Shown one piece after another: positions 8,425 to 55,560 of a stretch of DNA of 64,000 bases (its first letter is position 1; every line of letters starts with the position of its first letter). The stretch is taken from positions 127,596,001 through 127,660,000 of the forward strand of contig NC_043001.1 in the NCBI RefSeq assembly GCF_006345805.1, written 5' to 3'. A program made the translations under genes and the position numbers. Below the pieces are notes generated by a model, which worked only from the letters and a program-made list of their open reading frames with translations, was not told the DNA's origin and did not search any database. The DNA is from Octopus sinensis. Lineage: Eukaryota.

Positions 8425-9439
8425 AATTTTCAGATAGAGCCAATATGACAAGACCGGTCCATTGAACTGGTACAGTCTATCCAACGAGCTTTATATAGTT
8501 TCATTCATTCACAAATGAATGGGTTGACCTGAGATTATGGTAAATACACTTGCCCAAGATGCTTCACAGTGCTATTGGAGGAATGATTGGGCCTGGCTGT
8601 TTGGACACTCGTGGTTTAGTACAACTGACTGACCATTCGGGTTGTTTTGGCACTGGAGGGAAAACACACACAAACACACATGCATGCACATACTGAAATA
8701 TACAGATAAATGTAAAGAGACACATACAAACGTAACTAAATGCTCAAACACTTATCAAGAATTGATCGGTGATAACACAGGTCAATGATCATCAAAACTT
8801 CTGCTTGAACCACAAAAGCACACCCCAGCAACCATCCATAAAGCTCAGGACAATTTGGGCTCACAAAATGGGACCTATTTTGTTGGGTGGTGTGCAAATA
8901 GAAAGTGCAGTTTGCATAAAATGTTATACATTGATCTTTGTTTACTAGGGTGTTAAATGAACCAGTGATAAATGTATAATAGAAAATAAGAGGGGGAGAG
9001 AGAGAGAGAGAGAGTGTGTGTGTGTGTGTGTGTGTTTTTATCATTTTAATATCCACACTTTTCCATGCTTGTATAGTTGGTAGCAGAAAGAGTTGTCCAA
9101 AGTAAAATCCTACTTCAGGTAAAGTTCATCCAACCCTATACTGGCATGGGGAAATGGACATGAGTGAATGAGTAATTGCCTGAGTACATTGTGGAACTGA
9201 AAGCAATCTGTGACATTGCTCAGGGGTGATAGAAGCTCAGGTGGTTTTGACTAGCTTCTTTTTTAACAAAACTCCGCAGGAGTGGCTGTGTGGTAAGTAG
9301 CTTGCTTACCAACCACATGGTTCCGGGTTCAGTCCCAGTGCGTGGCATCTTGGGCAAGTGTCTTCTGCTATAGCCCCAGGCCGACCAATGCCTTGTGAGT
9401 GGATTTGGTATACGGAAACTGAAAGAAGCCTGTCGTATA

Positions 9440-11337
9440 TTTTTTTATAGGGATATTTATATTTATTTATTTGTATGGGTGTGGGAGTGAATATTTTGAT
9501 GTATATATCGAGGTTTGTACGTATGTATATGTATGTGTGAGTGGAGTGGGTATAGGTATATGTAGTGGGTGTGTGTTTTACGTGTGTGTATTTGTGTGTG
9601 ATAGGGGGATTGCTATATAGGTATGTTATAGTGTTTAGTAAAGGGAGATTTTATCGTTATATGTATATATGAGTTTTCGTTTATCATGGTAGTTTTATTA
9701 AAGAATTTGTAGTAATTTCTGTCTGTTTAAGTGTTTAACTTATTATTCCATTTATTCCATTCATAATTTTAAATAACGTTCGTTCTCCACGCACAAAGAA
9801 TTTTATAATTCCATTCTGTTCCATTCATAATTTTAAATGACGTTCATTCACCGAGCTAAGAATTTTTATAAATATGTTCGGTTTCTATGGTAACGTAATT
9901 TTGTTTAAAGTTATAACAGCTAGAGTTTGAATTCACTTCATAAATTAAAACAGATTAGGAGGTATGTATTTTTTTCTCCTTATGTTAATCTTGTTACTTA
10001 TGATAATCTGGTTACTTATGGAGTATTTTATATATCGTATTATGTGTAGATATGTTGTTTTTCTTTTGAGTGTTTATGTATGTGTGAATGTGTGTGTGTG
10101 CGTATTTGGTTGTGTAATTTATTTATCTATATGGGTGTGGGTGTGAATATATTGTTGTATATATCGAGTTTAGTACGTATGTATATGTATATGTGAGGGG
10201 GTATATGTATATGTTATGGGTGTGTGTTTTACGTATGTGTATTTTTGTGTGTGAATGTATTATGGGGATTGCTATATAGGTATTATTGTGCATGGTAAAG
10301 GGTGTTTTATCATTATATGTATATATGGGTTTCATTATCATGATTGGTTTATTAATGATTTTGGAGTAAATTCTGTATATTTACGTTGATTAAATATTAT
10401 TCCATTCTTTCCATTCATAATTTTAAAAAAAACCTTCGATCACCATCCGCAAAGAATTGTTTATTTTTCTTTTGAGTGTTTATGTATGTGTGAATGTGTG
10501 TGTGTGTGTGTGATTGTTTGCATAATTTATTTATCTGTATGGGTGTGGGTGTGAATATATTGGTGTATATATCGAGTTCTGTATGTATGTATATGTATGT
10601 GTGAGCGGGTATATGTATATTGTTTATGACTGTGGGTTGTATGTGTGTGTGAGGGAGTATGAATAAGTCATGTGTTGAAGTATTTGGCTATTTTATTAAT
10701 TTATTAATTTATCGTTGCCTAGACGTTTTTATGTGTGTGTATAGAGATATATATATTGGTGTGTGAGTTAGTGTATGTATTTAGATATGGTTATATATAC
10801 TTAGTTATATGTGTATGAGCATGTGTGTATATATAGTTTATTTTTATTTTGTTTTTGTTTTTGTTTGTTTTTGTTTTTTGTCTTTTGTTTTTTGTTTTTG
10901 TTTTTTTTGTTTTTTGTTTTTTGTACATCTTTAAATATGAGAACTTTAATAATAGGTTTCTTTATATTCAATTGTTTATAGGGTTTATTTTAGATTATAT
11001 ATTGATTATATATAGATTATATATAGATTATATATAGATTATATATATTTATATTTTTCATTGATAATTTTATTATTTTAAACTTATATTTTAATATATT
11101 GATATTTTAGATCGAAAATCCACCTGACGAATGTCATTGAAGACATGAAACGATTGTAGTGGCGGTTTATTTCTTTATATTAAAAATTTTTATGTATTGA
11201 TTAAGTCTTTCCTTGTTTGTTTTGCAAAATAGTGGTTTTGTCTCTAATAATATTTTATAATATTTTACTATAAAATTGGATTTAATCCTATATCTGATTT
11301 TTTCCCTGTAAATTTGGATTTCTTCCCTAATATTTAT

Positions 11338-11340
<3 letters not shown>
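9440..11340 (+). mobile_element. ~1.9-kb non-coding hammerhead-carrying insertion (Penelope-like or retrozyme-like) inside the (TA)n of a SINE
   Basis: Splits a family A SINE into a 5' half (to 9439) and a 3' half (from ~11342); internal ~400-bp degenerate direct repeats; hammerhead ~180 bp from the 3' end, then (TA)n. Confidence 0.65.
11120..11162 (+). ncRNA. Minimal type I hammerhead ribozyme with intact core
   Basis: CCAC-CTGACGA-ATGTC-attgaa-GACAT-GAAAC-gatt-GTA-GTGG: stem I CCAC/GTGG, CUGANGA box, 5-bp stem II, GAAA box, 2-bp stem III, GUA cleavage triplet. Confidence 0.85.
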
Positions 11341-11393
<53 letters not shown>

Positions 11394-13093
11394 GTGTGTA
11401 TATGTTTGTGTGTCTGTGTTTGTTCCCCTAGCATTGCTTGACAACCAATGCTGGTGTGTTTACGTCCCTGTCACTTAGCGGTTCGGCAAAAGAGACTGAT
11501 ATAATAAGTACTGGGCTTACAAAAGAATAAGTCCCGGGGCTGATTTGCTCCACTAAAGGCGGTGCTCCAGCATGGCCGCAGTCAAATGACTGAAACAAGT
11601 AAAAGAGTAAAGAGAGATTCTCTGTGGGGGTTCAAGCTGGGTGAGTTACCAGACCATAGAAGTATGTGATAATTAATAAATCAGGCAGTGGTTGTTTTGG
11701 CAGTTGTTTTCAAGTGTCAGATGCTAGGGGAAGAAATTCCACAATTCCAAATAATTTACTGGTCGAAAGAAGCATGAAGTACTCCAAGATCACATACAAT
11801 GACAGCATCCTGAAGGAACAGAGGTCCAATACCTACATCTGACATGGCATCACAAACTAACACTATCTGTAGGAACTTGATGCTGAACTTCAAACAGAAT
11901 GGATTGCAAGCTTCACCAAGCCTTCCTTCAAACTCTGCAGTCTTAGCTTCCAAAATTTTATTGGATCAGAAAACACTTTAGACCTCTATTCTACATGTCA
12001 CTTCCTTAGCACAAGTTGAAACCACTTGTGATACTCTCTACCATTGCTGGTCACTTGGCTGTTGTACCCTATTTCTTGAAACTGTCTGTAATAGTTGGTT
12101 CTTGATGCACTAATTCCAACAGCTGTCCTCTTTTTAAGGATTTCTCCCACATTGCCAAACCTGCTCATTTTCATGGTTCTTTTGAGAATATTGTCAAACC
12201 TCTTGATGCAACATCTCTGTCTGCCACATCATGTTCTTCTAAGATGATGTTCCAAAGAGATACTTTCACAAAGAACTCTGAAAACAAACTGCTTTTTTTC
12301 AAGAAAAACCTTCTGTGTCTTCCTCTTTTAATAGAGTGCATCAAAAACTACATAAAAGTACTGGCTGAATAAGTATTACTCAAATAAGTTCAGATAATAT
12401 CACTGGAACATTTTGAGATAAGCAGAAGCCTCATATTTGTTTGTACTGTTGTTAGTATAATCAACCTAGAAATTAGCGGAATCATTCACTAAAGGAAATG
12501 AAACACTTCTGCTGCATCATTTACAGATAAGAATAATTTTTCTGAATATTCATTTATCTTTATTTTTTTTTTTTGTTTTTAATATATATTTCTTTACTAC
12601 CCACAAGGGGCTAACCACAGAGGGGACAAACAAGGGCAGACAAACAGATTAAGTCGATTACATTGACCCCAGTGCGTAACTGGTACTTAATTTATCGACC
12701 CTGAAAGGATGAAAGGCAAAGTCGACCTCGGCGGAGTTTGAACTCAGAACGTAACGGCAGACGAAATACAGCTATGCATTTCGCCCGGCATGCTAACGAT
12801 TCTGCCAGCTCGCCGCCTTTTGTTTTTAATATACGTTACTGAGACCCACATATATTCTAGACAACAGATGTAGCGCTAAATAAAATCAAAAACAATAAAA
12901 CAAACCCCTCAATAAAGAAGAATAGATGTAACATGCAAACACCATTCTACACCTATAAAATACAAGACTACCAACACCTCAGCAGCACAGAGGTGTGTCT
13001 GCTGGTACACCAACAGCTCACACAAAACTGATGAAAACAACTAATAACAACTTTCAAATTTTGGCACACGGCCTAGTAGTTTAGTGGGGAACC

Positions 13094-13641: not shown

Positions 13642-13898
13642 AAGAGGTTAGTTAATTACATCAATCCCAGTACTTGACTAATGACTCTAAAAGGGAGGAA
13701 AGGAAAGTTGATCTTAGCAGTATTTGAATGCAGAACATCAGAACCAGAAGAAATGCCACTAAGCATTTAGTCTGATGCAGTAACAATTCCTCGAGCTCAC
13801 TCTTTAGCATTTAAACCAACCACATCCAACCCAAATATTCTATCTGTTTCATGTTCAAATCAGCCATATCTGGCTTGTCACACATACTCTACTATGTC

Positions 13899-14506
13899 TA
13901 TTTCTTTACTACCCACAAGGGGCTAAACACAGAGAGGACAAACAAGGATAGACAAACGGATTAAGTCGATTATATCGACTCCAGTGCGTAACTGGTACTT
14001 ATATTTATCGACCCCGAAAGGATGAAAGGCAAAGTTGACCTCGGCAGAATTTGAACTCAGAACGTAACGGCAGATGAAATACCTATTTCTTTACTACCCA
14101 CAAGGGGCTAAACACAGAGAGGACAAACAAGGACAGAGACAAACGGATTAAGTCGATTATATCGACTCCTGTGCGTAACTGGTACTTATATTTATCGACC
14201 CCGAAAGGATGAAAGGCAAAGTCGACCTCGGCAGAATTTGAACTCAGAACGTAACGGCAGACGAAATACCTATTTCTTTACTACCCACAAGGGGTTAAAC
14301 ACAGAGAGGACAAACAAGGACAGAGACAAACGGATTAAGTCGATTATATCGACTCCAGTGCGTAACTGGTACTTATATTTATCGACCCCGAAAGGATGAA
14401 AGGCAAAGTCGACCTCGGCGGAATTTGAACTCGGAACGTAACAGCAGACGAAATACCGCAAAGCATTTCGCCCGGTGTGCTAACGTTTCTGCCAGCTCTC
14501 CGCCTT
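13899..14506 (-). mobile_element. SINE family B tandem trimer inserted as one unit
   Basis: One head plus three bodies with 185-187 bp period; single 15-bp TSD ATACTCTACTATGTC (13884-13898 and 14507-14521). Confidence 0.92.
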
Positions 14507-43702: not shown

Positions 43703-44042
43703 TGTTTACATAATTTACCTTTGACAGATATTTGTCCTCATTTTGTTTGTTGTTAACACGTTTCAGCTGATATGCATTCCAACCTTCATCAGGTGTCTTG
43801 GGGAAATTTCGAACCTGGGTTCTCATTCCTAAGGTATTTTTCAATGTTTTATTATTATTATTATTATCATTTTTATCATCATCATCATCATTATTATTAT
43901 TCAGGTCACTGCTTGGAATCGAACTTGCAATTTTGTAGTTAGTAGCCCGCGCTCTCAACCACTACGACATGCGTGTGGCATAGTGGTTAAGAGCATGGGC
44001 TACTAACCCCAAGATTCGAAGTTGGATTCCAGGCAGTGACCT
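43703..44042. mobile_element. tRNA-headed SINE-like element with a hammerhead tail and an inverted duplicate head
   Basis: Head-to-head ~67-bp arms (43903-43969 and 43976-44042) with A-box TAGTGGTT and B-box GTTCGATTCC; the minus copy continues through (AAT/GAT)n to the hammerhead motif. Confidence 0.6.
43755..43797 (-). ncRNA. Degenerate hammerhead motif at the 3' end of a tRNA-headed element
   Basis: Minus strand GACAC-CTGATGA-a-GGTTG...CAGCT-GAAAC-GTGTT; both core boxes and stems I/II present, but no room for the NUH cleavage triplet. Confidence 0.55.
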
Positions 44043-44559: not shown

Positions 44560-45420
44560 GTGTATTGAGGTGGAAGTGAAAAGAATCGAGATCTCTGCTC
44601 TCCTGCATGAAGGCCACAAGTCCAACATCACCAAGCGACTCAACATCAGTTGGATGACTGTCCACAGAGTCAGAGAGGCTCGAGAACAGGAAAGACCTTG
44701 AGCTGTGAACCGTTTGGCTGTGAGAAAGACTTTCAAAAGTGCTCCGAAGCTCAAAATGACTGCACTCACGAAGAACAACATCTCAGTAGCCACTATATCC
44801 AGGGCCATCAAGGAGGAGGGTGGCAAGAGCTTGAGGTGTGTGGAAAGACCTCTGCTCACCAACCATATGCAAGAACAATGTTGGGAGCACTGTCATAGCC
44901 TTCTCAATGATTTGAAGTGCCATGGCAATCAAATTCTCATTTTTTCTGATGGAAAAACTTTCACAGTCAATCTGATCATCAACAAGCAGAACGACTACAT
45001 GGTCAGCTTTGGCCAGGACATCTCCAAGGTCCACTACATGTCCACAACTAAGCACTTGGCCTCCATGATGATGCTCACTGTCACGGCTTCAAATGGCAAG
45101 AAGATGCCACCAGTGTGGTTCGCAGCTGACTACAGGGACATCTTGGCCATGAAAGTCCTGTCCTGGATGAGAAAGATCACAAAGAAGACAGACTACATCT
45201 TTCAGCAAGACAGTGCCCCTGCCCACACAGCCAAGGCCATGCAATAGTGGTTGGGGTCAAACATGAACTTTTGGTCAAAGGATTTTTGGCTGCCACAGTT
45301 TCCCAACCTCAACCCCCTCAACTGCAGTATGTGAGTGCATGTTGAGGGCAAGGCCTGCAAGGTCCATTATAACAACATCGACGAGCTGAAGTCTTCCATC
45401 AACTGTGAATGGACCAGCAC
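44560..45420 (+). pseudogene. Tc1/mariner transposase relic, maT (DD37D)-like
   Basis: ORF 44705-45247 with FSDGKTFTV..NKQND and YIFQQDSAPAHTAK; continues past a stop as FWLPQFPNLNPLN (SPDLNPLD-like); no TIRs seen. Confidence 0.85.
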
Positions 45421-53909: not shown

Positions 53910-54984
53910 TCATCATCATCATCATCATCGTTAGTGTCCGCTTTCCATGCTGGCATGGGTTGGACGGTGCAACTGGGGTCTGGGAAGCCAGAAGGCTGCA
54001 CCAGGCCCAGTTTGATCTGGCAATGTTTCTACGGCTGGATGCCCTTCCTAACGCCAACCACTCCATGAGTGTAATGGGTGCTTTTTACGTGCCACCGGCA
54101 CAGGTGCCAGACGAGGCTGGCAAACGGCCACGATCGGATATATGTATATATTTGTGTGTGTGATCGCTTGACTTCCGATGTTGTCAAGCGATCACACACA
54201 CAAATATATACATACATATAGATACATATATATATACATATATATATATATATGTATATATATATGTATGTATATGTATATATTTGTGTGTGATTGCTTG
54301 ACAACCGATGTTGGTGTGTTTATGTTCCCATAACTTAGGAGTTCAGCAAAAGAGACTGATAGAATAAGTACTAGCCTTACAAAGAATAAGTCCTGGAGTC
54401 GATTTCTTCGACTATAATCCTTTAAGATGGTGCTCCAGCATGGCTGCAGTCAAATGACCAAAACAAGTAAAAGTACAAAAGCAATGTCTCTATTATTAGA
54501 TGACAAAATTGTTGTGTCGAGATGAACGCAGCTCTATTCTTGCAGTTCTTAACTATTTATATCTTTGAGCTTGTCAATGACCGTGGCATTGAAGGTGTCA
54601 TTTGTGTGCACTATTTCCAGACTAAATCTGTTGAGCATGATACTTGAAATCTTGGACAAGTTTATCAGGATACTTAGAACAAAGCCGAAGTGGCACACAA
54701 AAAGTTAACTGTATGTTGAAAAAACGCCCCAAGACTCTTAGGTTTCTGTATTGCATCCTACTGGGCATCATTTTCCGGTAATCCAAGTATAAGGACTGTC
54801 TCTCAGTTAGTAGTGCAAATTTTACCATTGATTTTTCAAAGAACTTAAAATAAACTTGAACTTAACACTATGTATAGAAGACACAGAAAGTAGTAGTCAA
54901 GTTGACTGGAGTGTGCAGTATAGCATCTCCTATTGATACTGTTACAACTTCTGTCATGTTGGCCTTCAGCAGGGAAACCTTCCT

Positions 54985-55560
54985 TTCTTCATCCTGGAAC
55001 CCATATCTTGCCCAGGATATCAATCGTCTGGAAGCCATTCAGCGACATGCAACCAAAAGAATACCCTCCATCAGGCATTTGCCATATTCTGAATGCCTTA
55101 CTTCCCTGGGCATGGACACATTGAAACTCCGACGTCTGGCAGCTGACTTGGCAGACACCCATAAAATTATCAACCATCTTACAAACAATAACTCTGAGCA
55201 CCTTTTCGAACTCCACCCGTCTAACACCCGTGGACATATTTACAAAGTCAGAAAACAGCACAGTTCCCATGACTTTTGGAAAGATTTTTTCATGCTGAGA
55301 GTTGCTGAAGCATGGAACAAATTGCCGGCATCAGTTGTTAGTTGTCGGAGCACTGCATCCTTCAAAACTTCCATGCTTTCTGAGATTCGCCAACACTACA
55401 CCTGATTTTCTCCCCTCCATACACACACAAGCATGTATCTGACTCATACATTGTTCGCTTTCCAGACATTTGTACATTACTGCATATACTTTATACGCAC
55501 TTTCTGACAATTTGTGGTGCACCTGAGCACTGTATACAATAATTTCATTATTATTTATAA
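54985..55560 (+). mobile_element. CR1/L2-group LINE 3' end; shorter copies at ~42010-42230(+) and ~51780-51920(-)
   Basis: WNPYLAQDINRLEAIQRHATKRIP...LRRLAADL...NTRGH...FFMLRVAEAWNKLP; 3' GTGCACCTGAGCAC hairpin and ATT-rich tail. Confidence 0.9.

What the first reader, a model, noticed from the sequence alone, without database searches (positions are those of the whole stretch)
9440..11340. Microsatellite-associated, non-coding, hammerhead-bearing 1.9-kb element
Seen: the element sits in the central (TA)n of a family A SINE and splits it cleanly. It has no meaningful ORF, is strongly G/T-skewed on the plus strand, and has ~400-bp degenerate direct repeats (~9455-9830, ~10058-10464, partial ~10465-10625) ending in the hammerhead-containing terminus. 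Inference: a non-autonomous Penelope-dependent or retrozyme-like family that targets (TA)n tracts, possibly uncharacterised in cephalopods.
Basis: partly seen in the sequence, partly recalled or inferred. Interest (0 to 1): 0.72.

Follow-up and report, generated by a model that had tools for sequence, protein, structure and literature searches.

The report
Unspliced end of Hydra-type Penelope retrotransposon
This 1.9-kb insert is the cut-off, intron-keeping end of an abundant protein-coding jumping gene of a known type; hundreds of short sister copies lack exactly that intron while all 24 gene-linked copies checked keep it, so the family likely records which RNA such elements must copy in order to spread.

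Summary
9440-11343 is a 5'-truncated copy of a 5.4-6.1-kb Penelope-like element (PLE) with one ~830-aa ORF (telomerase-like RT, C-terminal GIY-YIG) whose motifs fit the Hydra clade. It sits in a SINE's central (TA)n; 29 of 30 copies end in (TA)n. The 'non-coding' body holds an inferred start site (9935), a 27-nt exon, a 1,149-nt GT-AG intron (9962-11110) and the hammerhead exon. Hundreds of short genomic copies are precisely spliced and stop at or inside exon 1 (189 exact junctions; 383 of 413 lack upstream bases). All 24 ORF-linked repeats checked are unspliced, and 0 of 49 classifiable two-armed insertions mix states. Spliced mRNA thus likely yields dead-end stubs; only unspliced, over-unit-length RNA propagates the gene. 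The element is about twice the length of listed Hydra families. This scan reported spliced-leader copies before, on other DNA of this genome. Cleavage, expression and circles were not tested.

The parts
9275..9439 (+). 5' half of an abundant SINE (host of the insertion)
9440..9934 (+). Distal 3'-UTR / likely promoter region of the PLE; 9440 is the 5' truncation point (T-run, 1-nt microhomology); holds repeat unit 1 (9461-9810) and a 64-nt duplication (9740-9871)
   Evidence: promoter role inferred from where spliced copies stop
9935..9961 (+). Inferred transcription start (9935) and 27-nt non-coding exon 1
   Evidence: 23 of the first 30 spliced arms that reach this motif stop exactly at its first base
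9962..11110 (+). 1,149-nt spliceosomal-type intron (GTATGT ... TTTTAG), retained in this copy; holds repeat units 2 and 3, a (TTTTG)n tract and an 11-nt tandem array
10055..10466 (+). Degenerate repeat unit 2 (in the intron)
10461..10650 (+). Partial repeat unit 3 (in the intron)
11111..11263 (+). Exon 2 up to the 'short' terminus (pLTR end); 38 of 112 mapped ends fall at 11259-11263
11120..11162 (+). Type I hammerhead motif: stem I 4 bp, stem II 5 bp, near-palindromic stem III; predicted cut after 11158
   Evidence: activity untested
11264..11343 (+). ~80-nt 'tail' up to the second terminus; in full-length copies the ATG follows 277 nt after the start of stem I
11341..11385 (.). (TA)n target tract
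11386..11614 (+). 3' half of the SINE

Best explanation
The insert is a 5'-truncated, intron-retaining copy of the 3' end of a protein-coding Hydra-type Penelope-like retrotransposon, likely written into the SINE's TA repeat by the element's own endonuclease and reverse transcriptase from an unspliced RNA. Shown: full-length units of 5.4-6.1 kb read terminal repeat - ORF - 2.6-3.6 kb non-coding region - terminal repeat; copies end at two fixed sites ~80 nt apart, both abutting (TA)n; the non-coding region carries an exon and a GT-AG intron that is exactly missing in hundreds of short copies. Inferred: (1) an RNA polymerase II promoter just upstream of 9935 makes an mRNA whose first intron is spliced; (2) the GIY-YIG domain nicks (TA)n and reverse transcription starts inside the RNA at the two fixed sites, which lie 5' of the ATG; (3) started in the spliced leader, it reaches the RNA's 5' end after 180-260 nt and leaves one- or two-armed stubs with neither promoter nor ORF; (4) started in the downstream repeat, it runs through the intron, which is rarely spliced in that position, then promoter, UTR and ORF; the window copy stopped after 1.9 kb; (5) ORF-bearing copies come from unspliced RNA longer than one unit (read-through of tandem copies or a hammerhead-released circle; not told apart here).
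For: ORF link: tandem array with 5.57-kb unit; L043 and L059 join the window's own subfamily to the ORF; at least 150 RT-region matches in the genome (capped). Protein: model pLDDT 85, top four fold matches are telomerase RT; C-terminal domain best matches I-TevI GIY-YIG, Z 9.6, rmsd 2.5, 90 aligned; Hydra motifs. Ends: of 112 mapped ends 59 run through the tail and 38 stop at 11259-11263; 48 of 54 head-to-head pairs have one short and one tailed arm, as the two RT start sites of Poseidon predict (PMC11167929). Intron: exon 1 and a GTA(T/A)GT donor in each subfamily's long copies, each subfamily's own exon 1 joined to exon 2 in short copies; 189 exact spliced junctions against 267 exact hammerheads in the window's subfamily. 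Position effect: among plus-strand arms that keep 7 bases upstream of the start, 381 matches are unspliced and 19 spliced; the 30 spliced ones reach at most 360 nt upstream, the ORF being ~1.7 kb away. ORF-upstream repeats: 12 of 12 and 12 of 12 unspliced; their 5' ends are scattered, 1 of 24 stops in exon 1 and 6 carry exon 1 with upstream bases.
Against: No copy with a complete, uninterrupted ORF was seen: 9 of 9 ATG-containing copies translated stop early; L063 is open for 799 aa but lacks its start. No RNA evidence: start site, splicing and promoter are read from genomic copies only. Pfam found no RT or GIY-YIG and Foldseek gave no significant match for the endonuclease. Hammerhead covariation is weak: one compensatory pair, 131 of 500 shuffles as high. 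30 spliced arms do extend past the start, so position-dependent splicing is a bias, not a rule. The 381 is inflated because subfamily B repeats exon 1 two or three times per element. Loci for the pair counts were picked for one arm's state or for short spacing. Of 40 ORF loci, 28 were uninformative.
Confidence: 0.85

Rival explanations
1. The 1.9-kb unit is a non-autonomous or retrozyme-like family of its own that borrows a Penelope enzyme.
For: No ORF in the window copy; hammerhead and (TA)n ends are shared with retrozymes; short ORF-less copies outnumber ORF-bearing ones.
Against: 5' ends of 30 copies are scattered; longer copies run on into the ORF; the ~400-nt repeats carry no hammerhead, whereas retrozymes have one per tandem unit (bioRxiv 10.64898/2026.07.22.740005).
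Confidence: 0.03
2. The short 'spliced' copies are an independent SINE-like family amplified from one intron-less master, so they say nothing on the template of the autonomous element.
For: They are many and uniform in length; no RNA-level proof of splicing.
Against: Each subfamily's stubs carry that subfamily's own exon 1 and donor, subfamily B using a donor 4 nt upstream, which needs repeated independent splicing; most lack the DNA upstream of the start, so they likely have no promoter of their own.
Confidence: 0.06
3. Long, intron-keeping copies such as this one are copied from antisense RNA, which cannot be spliced (hypothesis of PMC3846280), and only the stubs come from sense mRNA.
For: Explains 24 of 24 unspliced ORF-upstream repeats and extension past the start site; head-to-head inversions could supply antisense transcripts.
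Against: Spliced and unspliced copies share the same two 3' termini and two-arm layout, which is simpler if both start at the same sites on sense RNA; 30 arms are spliced yet extend upstream of the start, so sense read-through RNA is copied.
Confidence: 0.06

Closest known systems
Hydra clade of C-terminal EN+ Penelope-like elements, including Hydra-1_Obim (Craig et al. 2021, PMC8557442; read: part 2 of 10, section 11, passages, supplement passages and part 2 of 59)
   Same: Single ORF, RT then GIY-YIG; DKT, CxCX5C linker, CxxC and CxH, no CCHH; type I hammerhead of the layout in File S2; (TA)n insertion; 5' truncation, partial tandems, inverted arms, tail.
   Different: Unit 5.4-6.1 kb against <3 kb (listed 1.1-3.0 kb); 2.6-3.6 kb from stop codon to hammerhead; ~100-aa Asn-rich insert; KWK for RWK; ~80-nt tail against 30-40; a 1.15-kb leader intron, not mentioned for Hydra in the passages read. 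By eye, Hydra-1_Obim has another N-terminus and hammerhead; no alignment to it could be run.
Penelope of Drosophila virilis (PMC2377424 passages; PMC4209133 part 1 of 4 and passages) and Chlamys-3_cRei (PMC8557442 passages)
   Same: Start site in the terminal repeat, short first exon, 5'-UTR intron retained on transposition; in D. virilis the intron ends at hammerhead helix I, here 9 nt before it.
   Different: Intron 75 nt (Penelope) or 398 nt (Chlamys-3) against 1,149 nt; the passages read report spliced transcripts, not hundreds of spliced genomic copies; different clades.
Poseidon PAc of Anolis (Frangieh et al. 2024, PMC11167929; parts 1-2 of 4)
   Same: Two adjacent termini defining a tail; AT-rich targets; hammerhead in the terminal repeat.
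   Different: PAc start sites lie inside the ORF, here upstream of the ATG; PAc was tested in vitro (hammerhead not needed there), this family was not.
Adineta vaga Pen1-Pen4 (PMC3846280; parts 1-2 of 5 and passages)
   Same: Asn-rich ORF inserts; long variable spacer between ORF and 3' repeat.
   Different: Their 0.9-1.5-kb spacers are unrelated captured DNA in rare copies; here shared modules are duplicated and inverted, and hold the start site and intron.
Metazoan non-LTR retrozymes (bioRxiv 10.64898/2026.07.22.740005; part 1 of 5, supplements not seen)
   Same: Type I hammerhead, PLE association.
   Different: Retrozymes are short non-coding tandem units with one hammerhead each; this is part of a coding element with one hammerhead per 5.5 kb.

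Membership tests
EN+ Penelope-like element | Single ORF with telomerase-like RT | tested here: met
   YRDD and motifs A/B; top four fold matches are telomerase RT, E 1e-9 to 8e-9; Pfam blank
EN+ Penelope-like element | GIY-YIG endonuclease | tested here: met
   VVY...YIG, R, H, E, N conserved; I-TevI Z 9.6, T4 EndoII Z 7.0; Foldseek not significant
EN+ Penelope-like element | pLTR/partial tandems, inverted truncated 5' copy, optional tail | tested here: met
   (13 of 30 loci with an adjacent inverted arm)
Hydra clade | C-terminal EN, no N-terminal EN or IFD | tested here: met
   motif A to B spacing 64 aa against 65 in Hydra-1_Obim, counted by eye
Hydra clade | DKT in place of DKG; RWK motif | tested here: met
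   SDKT present; RWK reads KWK, a conservative change
Hydra clade | CxCX5C linker, CxxC and CxH, no CCHH | tested here: met
   the last H reads N in L063 and H in L035, L064, L069
Hydra clade | Canonical hammerhead and (TA)n insertion | tested here: met
   cleavage not tested
Hydra clade | Phylogenetic placement with named Hydra references | tested here: inconclusive
   the tree (quick search, 60 of 71 rows) has no named references; it only groups the four families of this genome with five unnamed proteins (SH-aLRT 95)
Hydra clade | Generally short (<3 kb); a described trait, not a diagnostic | tested here: not met
   units of 5.4-6.1 kb
Naiad/Chlamys | N-terminal EN, DKA, no canonical hammerhead | tested here: not met
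   EN is C-terminal, DKT, hammerhead present
Non-LTR retrozyme | Non-coding tandem units, a hammerhead in each | tested here: not met
   the repeats lack hammerheads (scan: one core in the insert); copies are ORF-linked
Non-LTR retrozyme | Abundant circular RNA | not testable with these tools
   no raw RNA reads were listed

The most novel reading that the evidence does not exclude
The intron and hammerhead sort the element's RNAs: spliced mRNA makes protein and only dead-end stubs, while paired hammerheads cut out and close an unspliced ~5.5-kb circle, dropping the 5' leader, that is the sole template for gene-carrying copies. This would explain at once why PLEs keep their intron, form partial tandems that run past their own start site, and keep a hammerhead that is dispensable in vitro. 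The circle idea is from PMC4209133; the spliced/unspliced sorting seen here would be its genomic footprint.
Probability: 0.3. Interest if true: 0.75.

Novelty: new variant of a known kind. Interest (0 to 1): 0.5.

Why it matters
The copy itself is an ordinary truncated insertion. The family matters because intron retention by PLEs is stated as unexplained (PMC8557442), with antisense versus unspliced-sense templates left open (PMC3846280). Here spliced and unspliced products of one element lie side by side in hundreds of young copies, map the likely start site and splice sites without RNA data, show that spliced sense RNA is copied, and show that ORF-linked repeats are unspliced. That gives a direct test of the template question and of what the hammerhead is for. 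It also doubles the size range of Hydra elements and warns that such ends get misread as retrozymes.

Tried and rejected
Rfam: no hammerhead hit. Pfam on the ORF and relatives: nothing. Solved-structure sequence search: nothing; profile gave only retron RT at E 0.011. First guesses Naiad and Nematis (recalled) were dropped. Empty-site and expression test: no RNA holder listed; reads could be laid only on the left part of the locus, where short contigs from three runs cover the element but none shown bridges the left junction, so presence or absence of this insertion elsewhere stays open. Cap-derived extra G: 12 of 21 arms have G before the start, but most can be templated by the partner arm; not claimed. 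Special targeting of the SINE: both SINE halves flank 4 of 30 copies, while 18 of 46 TA runs in the window lie near SINE halves; read as ordinary (TA)n choice. A target-site duplication cannot be read in (TA)n. G/T skew as a functional trait: it flips in inverted UTR blocks of other subfamilies. 5' ends piling at the predicted cut site: not seen. Careful tree did not finish. Look-up of earlier notes by sequence and near the window found nothing. Paper searches listed no description of this family or of spliced genomic PLE stubs; subscription papers, Repbase/Dfam and the O. vulgaris repeat library were not searchable, and bioRxiv supplements were not seen.

Full report
Observation. The insert runs from 9440 to about 11343 between the two halves of an abundant SINE. 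It has no real ORF, strong G/T skew over its repeats, degenerate repeats at about the stated places and a complete type I hammerhead core at 11120-11162 with the cut predicted after 11158. Rfam missed the motif. Its stems pair in 96.7% of cells across 10 distinct rows, with only one compensatory pair and no excess over shuffles; the better support is 3,592 exact genomic matches with loop II free and 0 control matches. The host is likely an octopus (inference; a fragment of the ORF matches an Octopus bimaculoides protein at 79%).

It is a truncated coding element. The terminus is multi-copy. 29 of 30 copies end in (TA)n against 1.9% background; their 5' ends are scattered and 13 of 30 have an adjacent inverted arm. 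Of 112 mapped 3' ends, 38 stop at 11259-11263 and 59 run through an ~80-nt tail. Five longer copies continue upstream of 9440. A tandem array has a 5.57-kb unit: terminus, ORF, 2.8 kb non-coding, terminus; other units are 5.4-6.1 kb. The window copy is 95% identical to the distal 1.65 kb of the post-ORF region of L043 and differs from five near copies by 1.6-3.5% substitutions, so it is young. The ORF spans 2,444-2,556 nt. None of 9 ATG-containing copies translated is intact; L063 is open for 799 aa but 5'-truncated.

The protein. Pfam finds nothing. A model of the L063 frame (pLDDT 85; residues 458-560, Asn-rich, disordered) matches telomerase RT best, and its C-terminal domain matches I-TevI (Z 9.6; Foldseek not significant). 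DKT, KWK, CxCX5C, CxxC, CxH and no CCHH fit the Hydra clade as defined in PMC8557442, whose hammerheads have the same layout. Hydra-1_Obim is a different 2.5-kb family (compared by eye). The tree lacks named references.

The hidden anatomy. The pattern search listed many hammerheads as close head-to-head pairs. An earlier scan note on intron-less copies (e1-10097286, seen) was a lead here. Of 40 loci fetched, 37 held a pair and 36 of these join window 9935-9961 (or the subfamily's equivalent) directly to 11111 (picked for short spacing). The skipped 1,149 nt begin GTATGT and end TTTTAG. Exon 1 and donor are conserved in the long copies of each subfamily. Genome-wide there are 189 exact spliced junctions of the window's subfamily against 267 exact hammerheads, and 592 exact unspliced acceptors across subfamilies. 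413 spliced arms reach the first base of exon 1; only 30 keep 7 upstream bases, by 7-18 nt in 12, 42-125 nt in 12 and 295-360 nt in 6; 23 of the first 30 of the 413 stop exactly at that base. That marks a likely transcription start at 9935 (inference). The layout matches D. virilis Penelope, whose 75-nt leader intron ends at hammerhead helix I.

Which RNA is copied. Of 54 head-to-head pairs, 35 are spliced on both arms, 14 unspliced on both, none mixed, 5 unclassified; 48 have one short and one tailed arm. None of 24 spliced arms without a hammerhead partner has inverted intron beside it. Independent RNAs would mix about 40% of the time at the subfamily's spliced share, so both arms likely come from one RNA; loci were picked for one arm's state. 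All 24 repeats upstream of an ATG are unspliced (28 of the 40 loci were uninformative); their 5' ends are scattered and 6 carry exon 1 with upstream bases. Among plus-strand arms with upstream bases, 381 matches are unspliced and 19 spliced (the 381 is inflated by repeated exon 1 in one subfamily).

Mechanism. By analogy with PAc, where RT starts inside the RNA at two sites that define the tail, the enzyme likely nicks (TA)n and starts at the two termini. On the spliced leader this gives promoter-less, ORF-less stubs. On the downstream repeat it runs through an intron that is rarely spliced there; the window copy is such a product. ORF-bearing copies need unspliced RNA longer than a unit: read-through or the circle proposed in PMC4209133. 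The antisense model is not excluded, but spliced copies show that sense RNA is used. Nothing was tested at RNA or enzyme level.

Verdict. New, unusually long family of a known clade with a large leader intron; the window copy is ordinary, the family is a useful natural experiment on PLE intron retention. Subfamilies 94-97% identical in the ORF have rearranged non-coding regions with inversions. An O. vulgaris annotation lists 329 recent Penelope insertions over 1,795,539 bp (mean 5.5 kb by my arithmetic), so the family may already sit unnamed in that library. Earlier scan notes report spliced-leader stubs on other DNA of this genome; they are unchecked and not counted as support. Interest 0.5.

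Noticed in passing
L083:2283-4808, L084, L085: Another Hydra-type family with an open 842-aa frame (34% identical to the focal one), 1.66-2.0 kb from stop to hammerhead, and a hammerhead with a ~45-nt insert in stem-loop II; groups with the focal family in the tree.
   Followed up: partly
L086-L088, L091; L089-L090: Two more Hydra-type families with open frames of 727 aa (1.0 kb to the hammerhead; the CxC linker cysteine is altered) and 717 aa (short 3' end; catalytic motif reads YKDD).
   Followed up: partly
L074, L068, L063, L073 (post-ORF regions): Subfamilies 94-97% identical in the ORF have non-coding regions reshuffled by inversions and duplications; subfamily B carries exon 1 with its donor two or three times, which may give alternative starts.
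   Followed up: partly
L239: A relative of the focal family whose hammerhead has a much longer loop II.
   Followed up: no
window 43750-43800 (minus strand): Hammerhead-like core downstream of a tRNA-like stretch and an (ATG/ATA)n run; similar to a motif in L078; likely the end of another PLE family.
   Followed up: no
window 4642 (+) and 32095 (-): Further CTGANGA...GAAA cores from the motif scan; not examined.
   Followed up: no
L050:1313-1505: A terminus followed directly by a spliced exon 1-exon 2 junction, i.e. a head-to-tail repeat of spliced leaders.
   Followed up: no
window 44702-45247 (+) and 54878-55405 (+): Open frames that look like a Tc1/mariner transposase fragment and a CR1/L2-type RT C-terminus (names recalled, not searched).
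   Followed up: no
window 13898-14457: Three near-identical 187-nt tandem copies, 97% alike.
   Followed up: no
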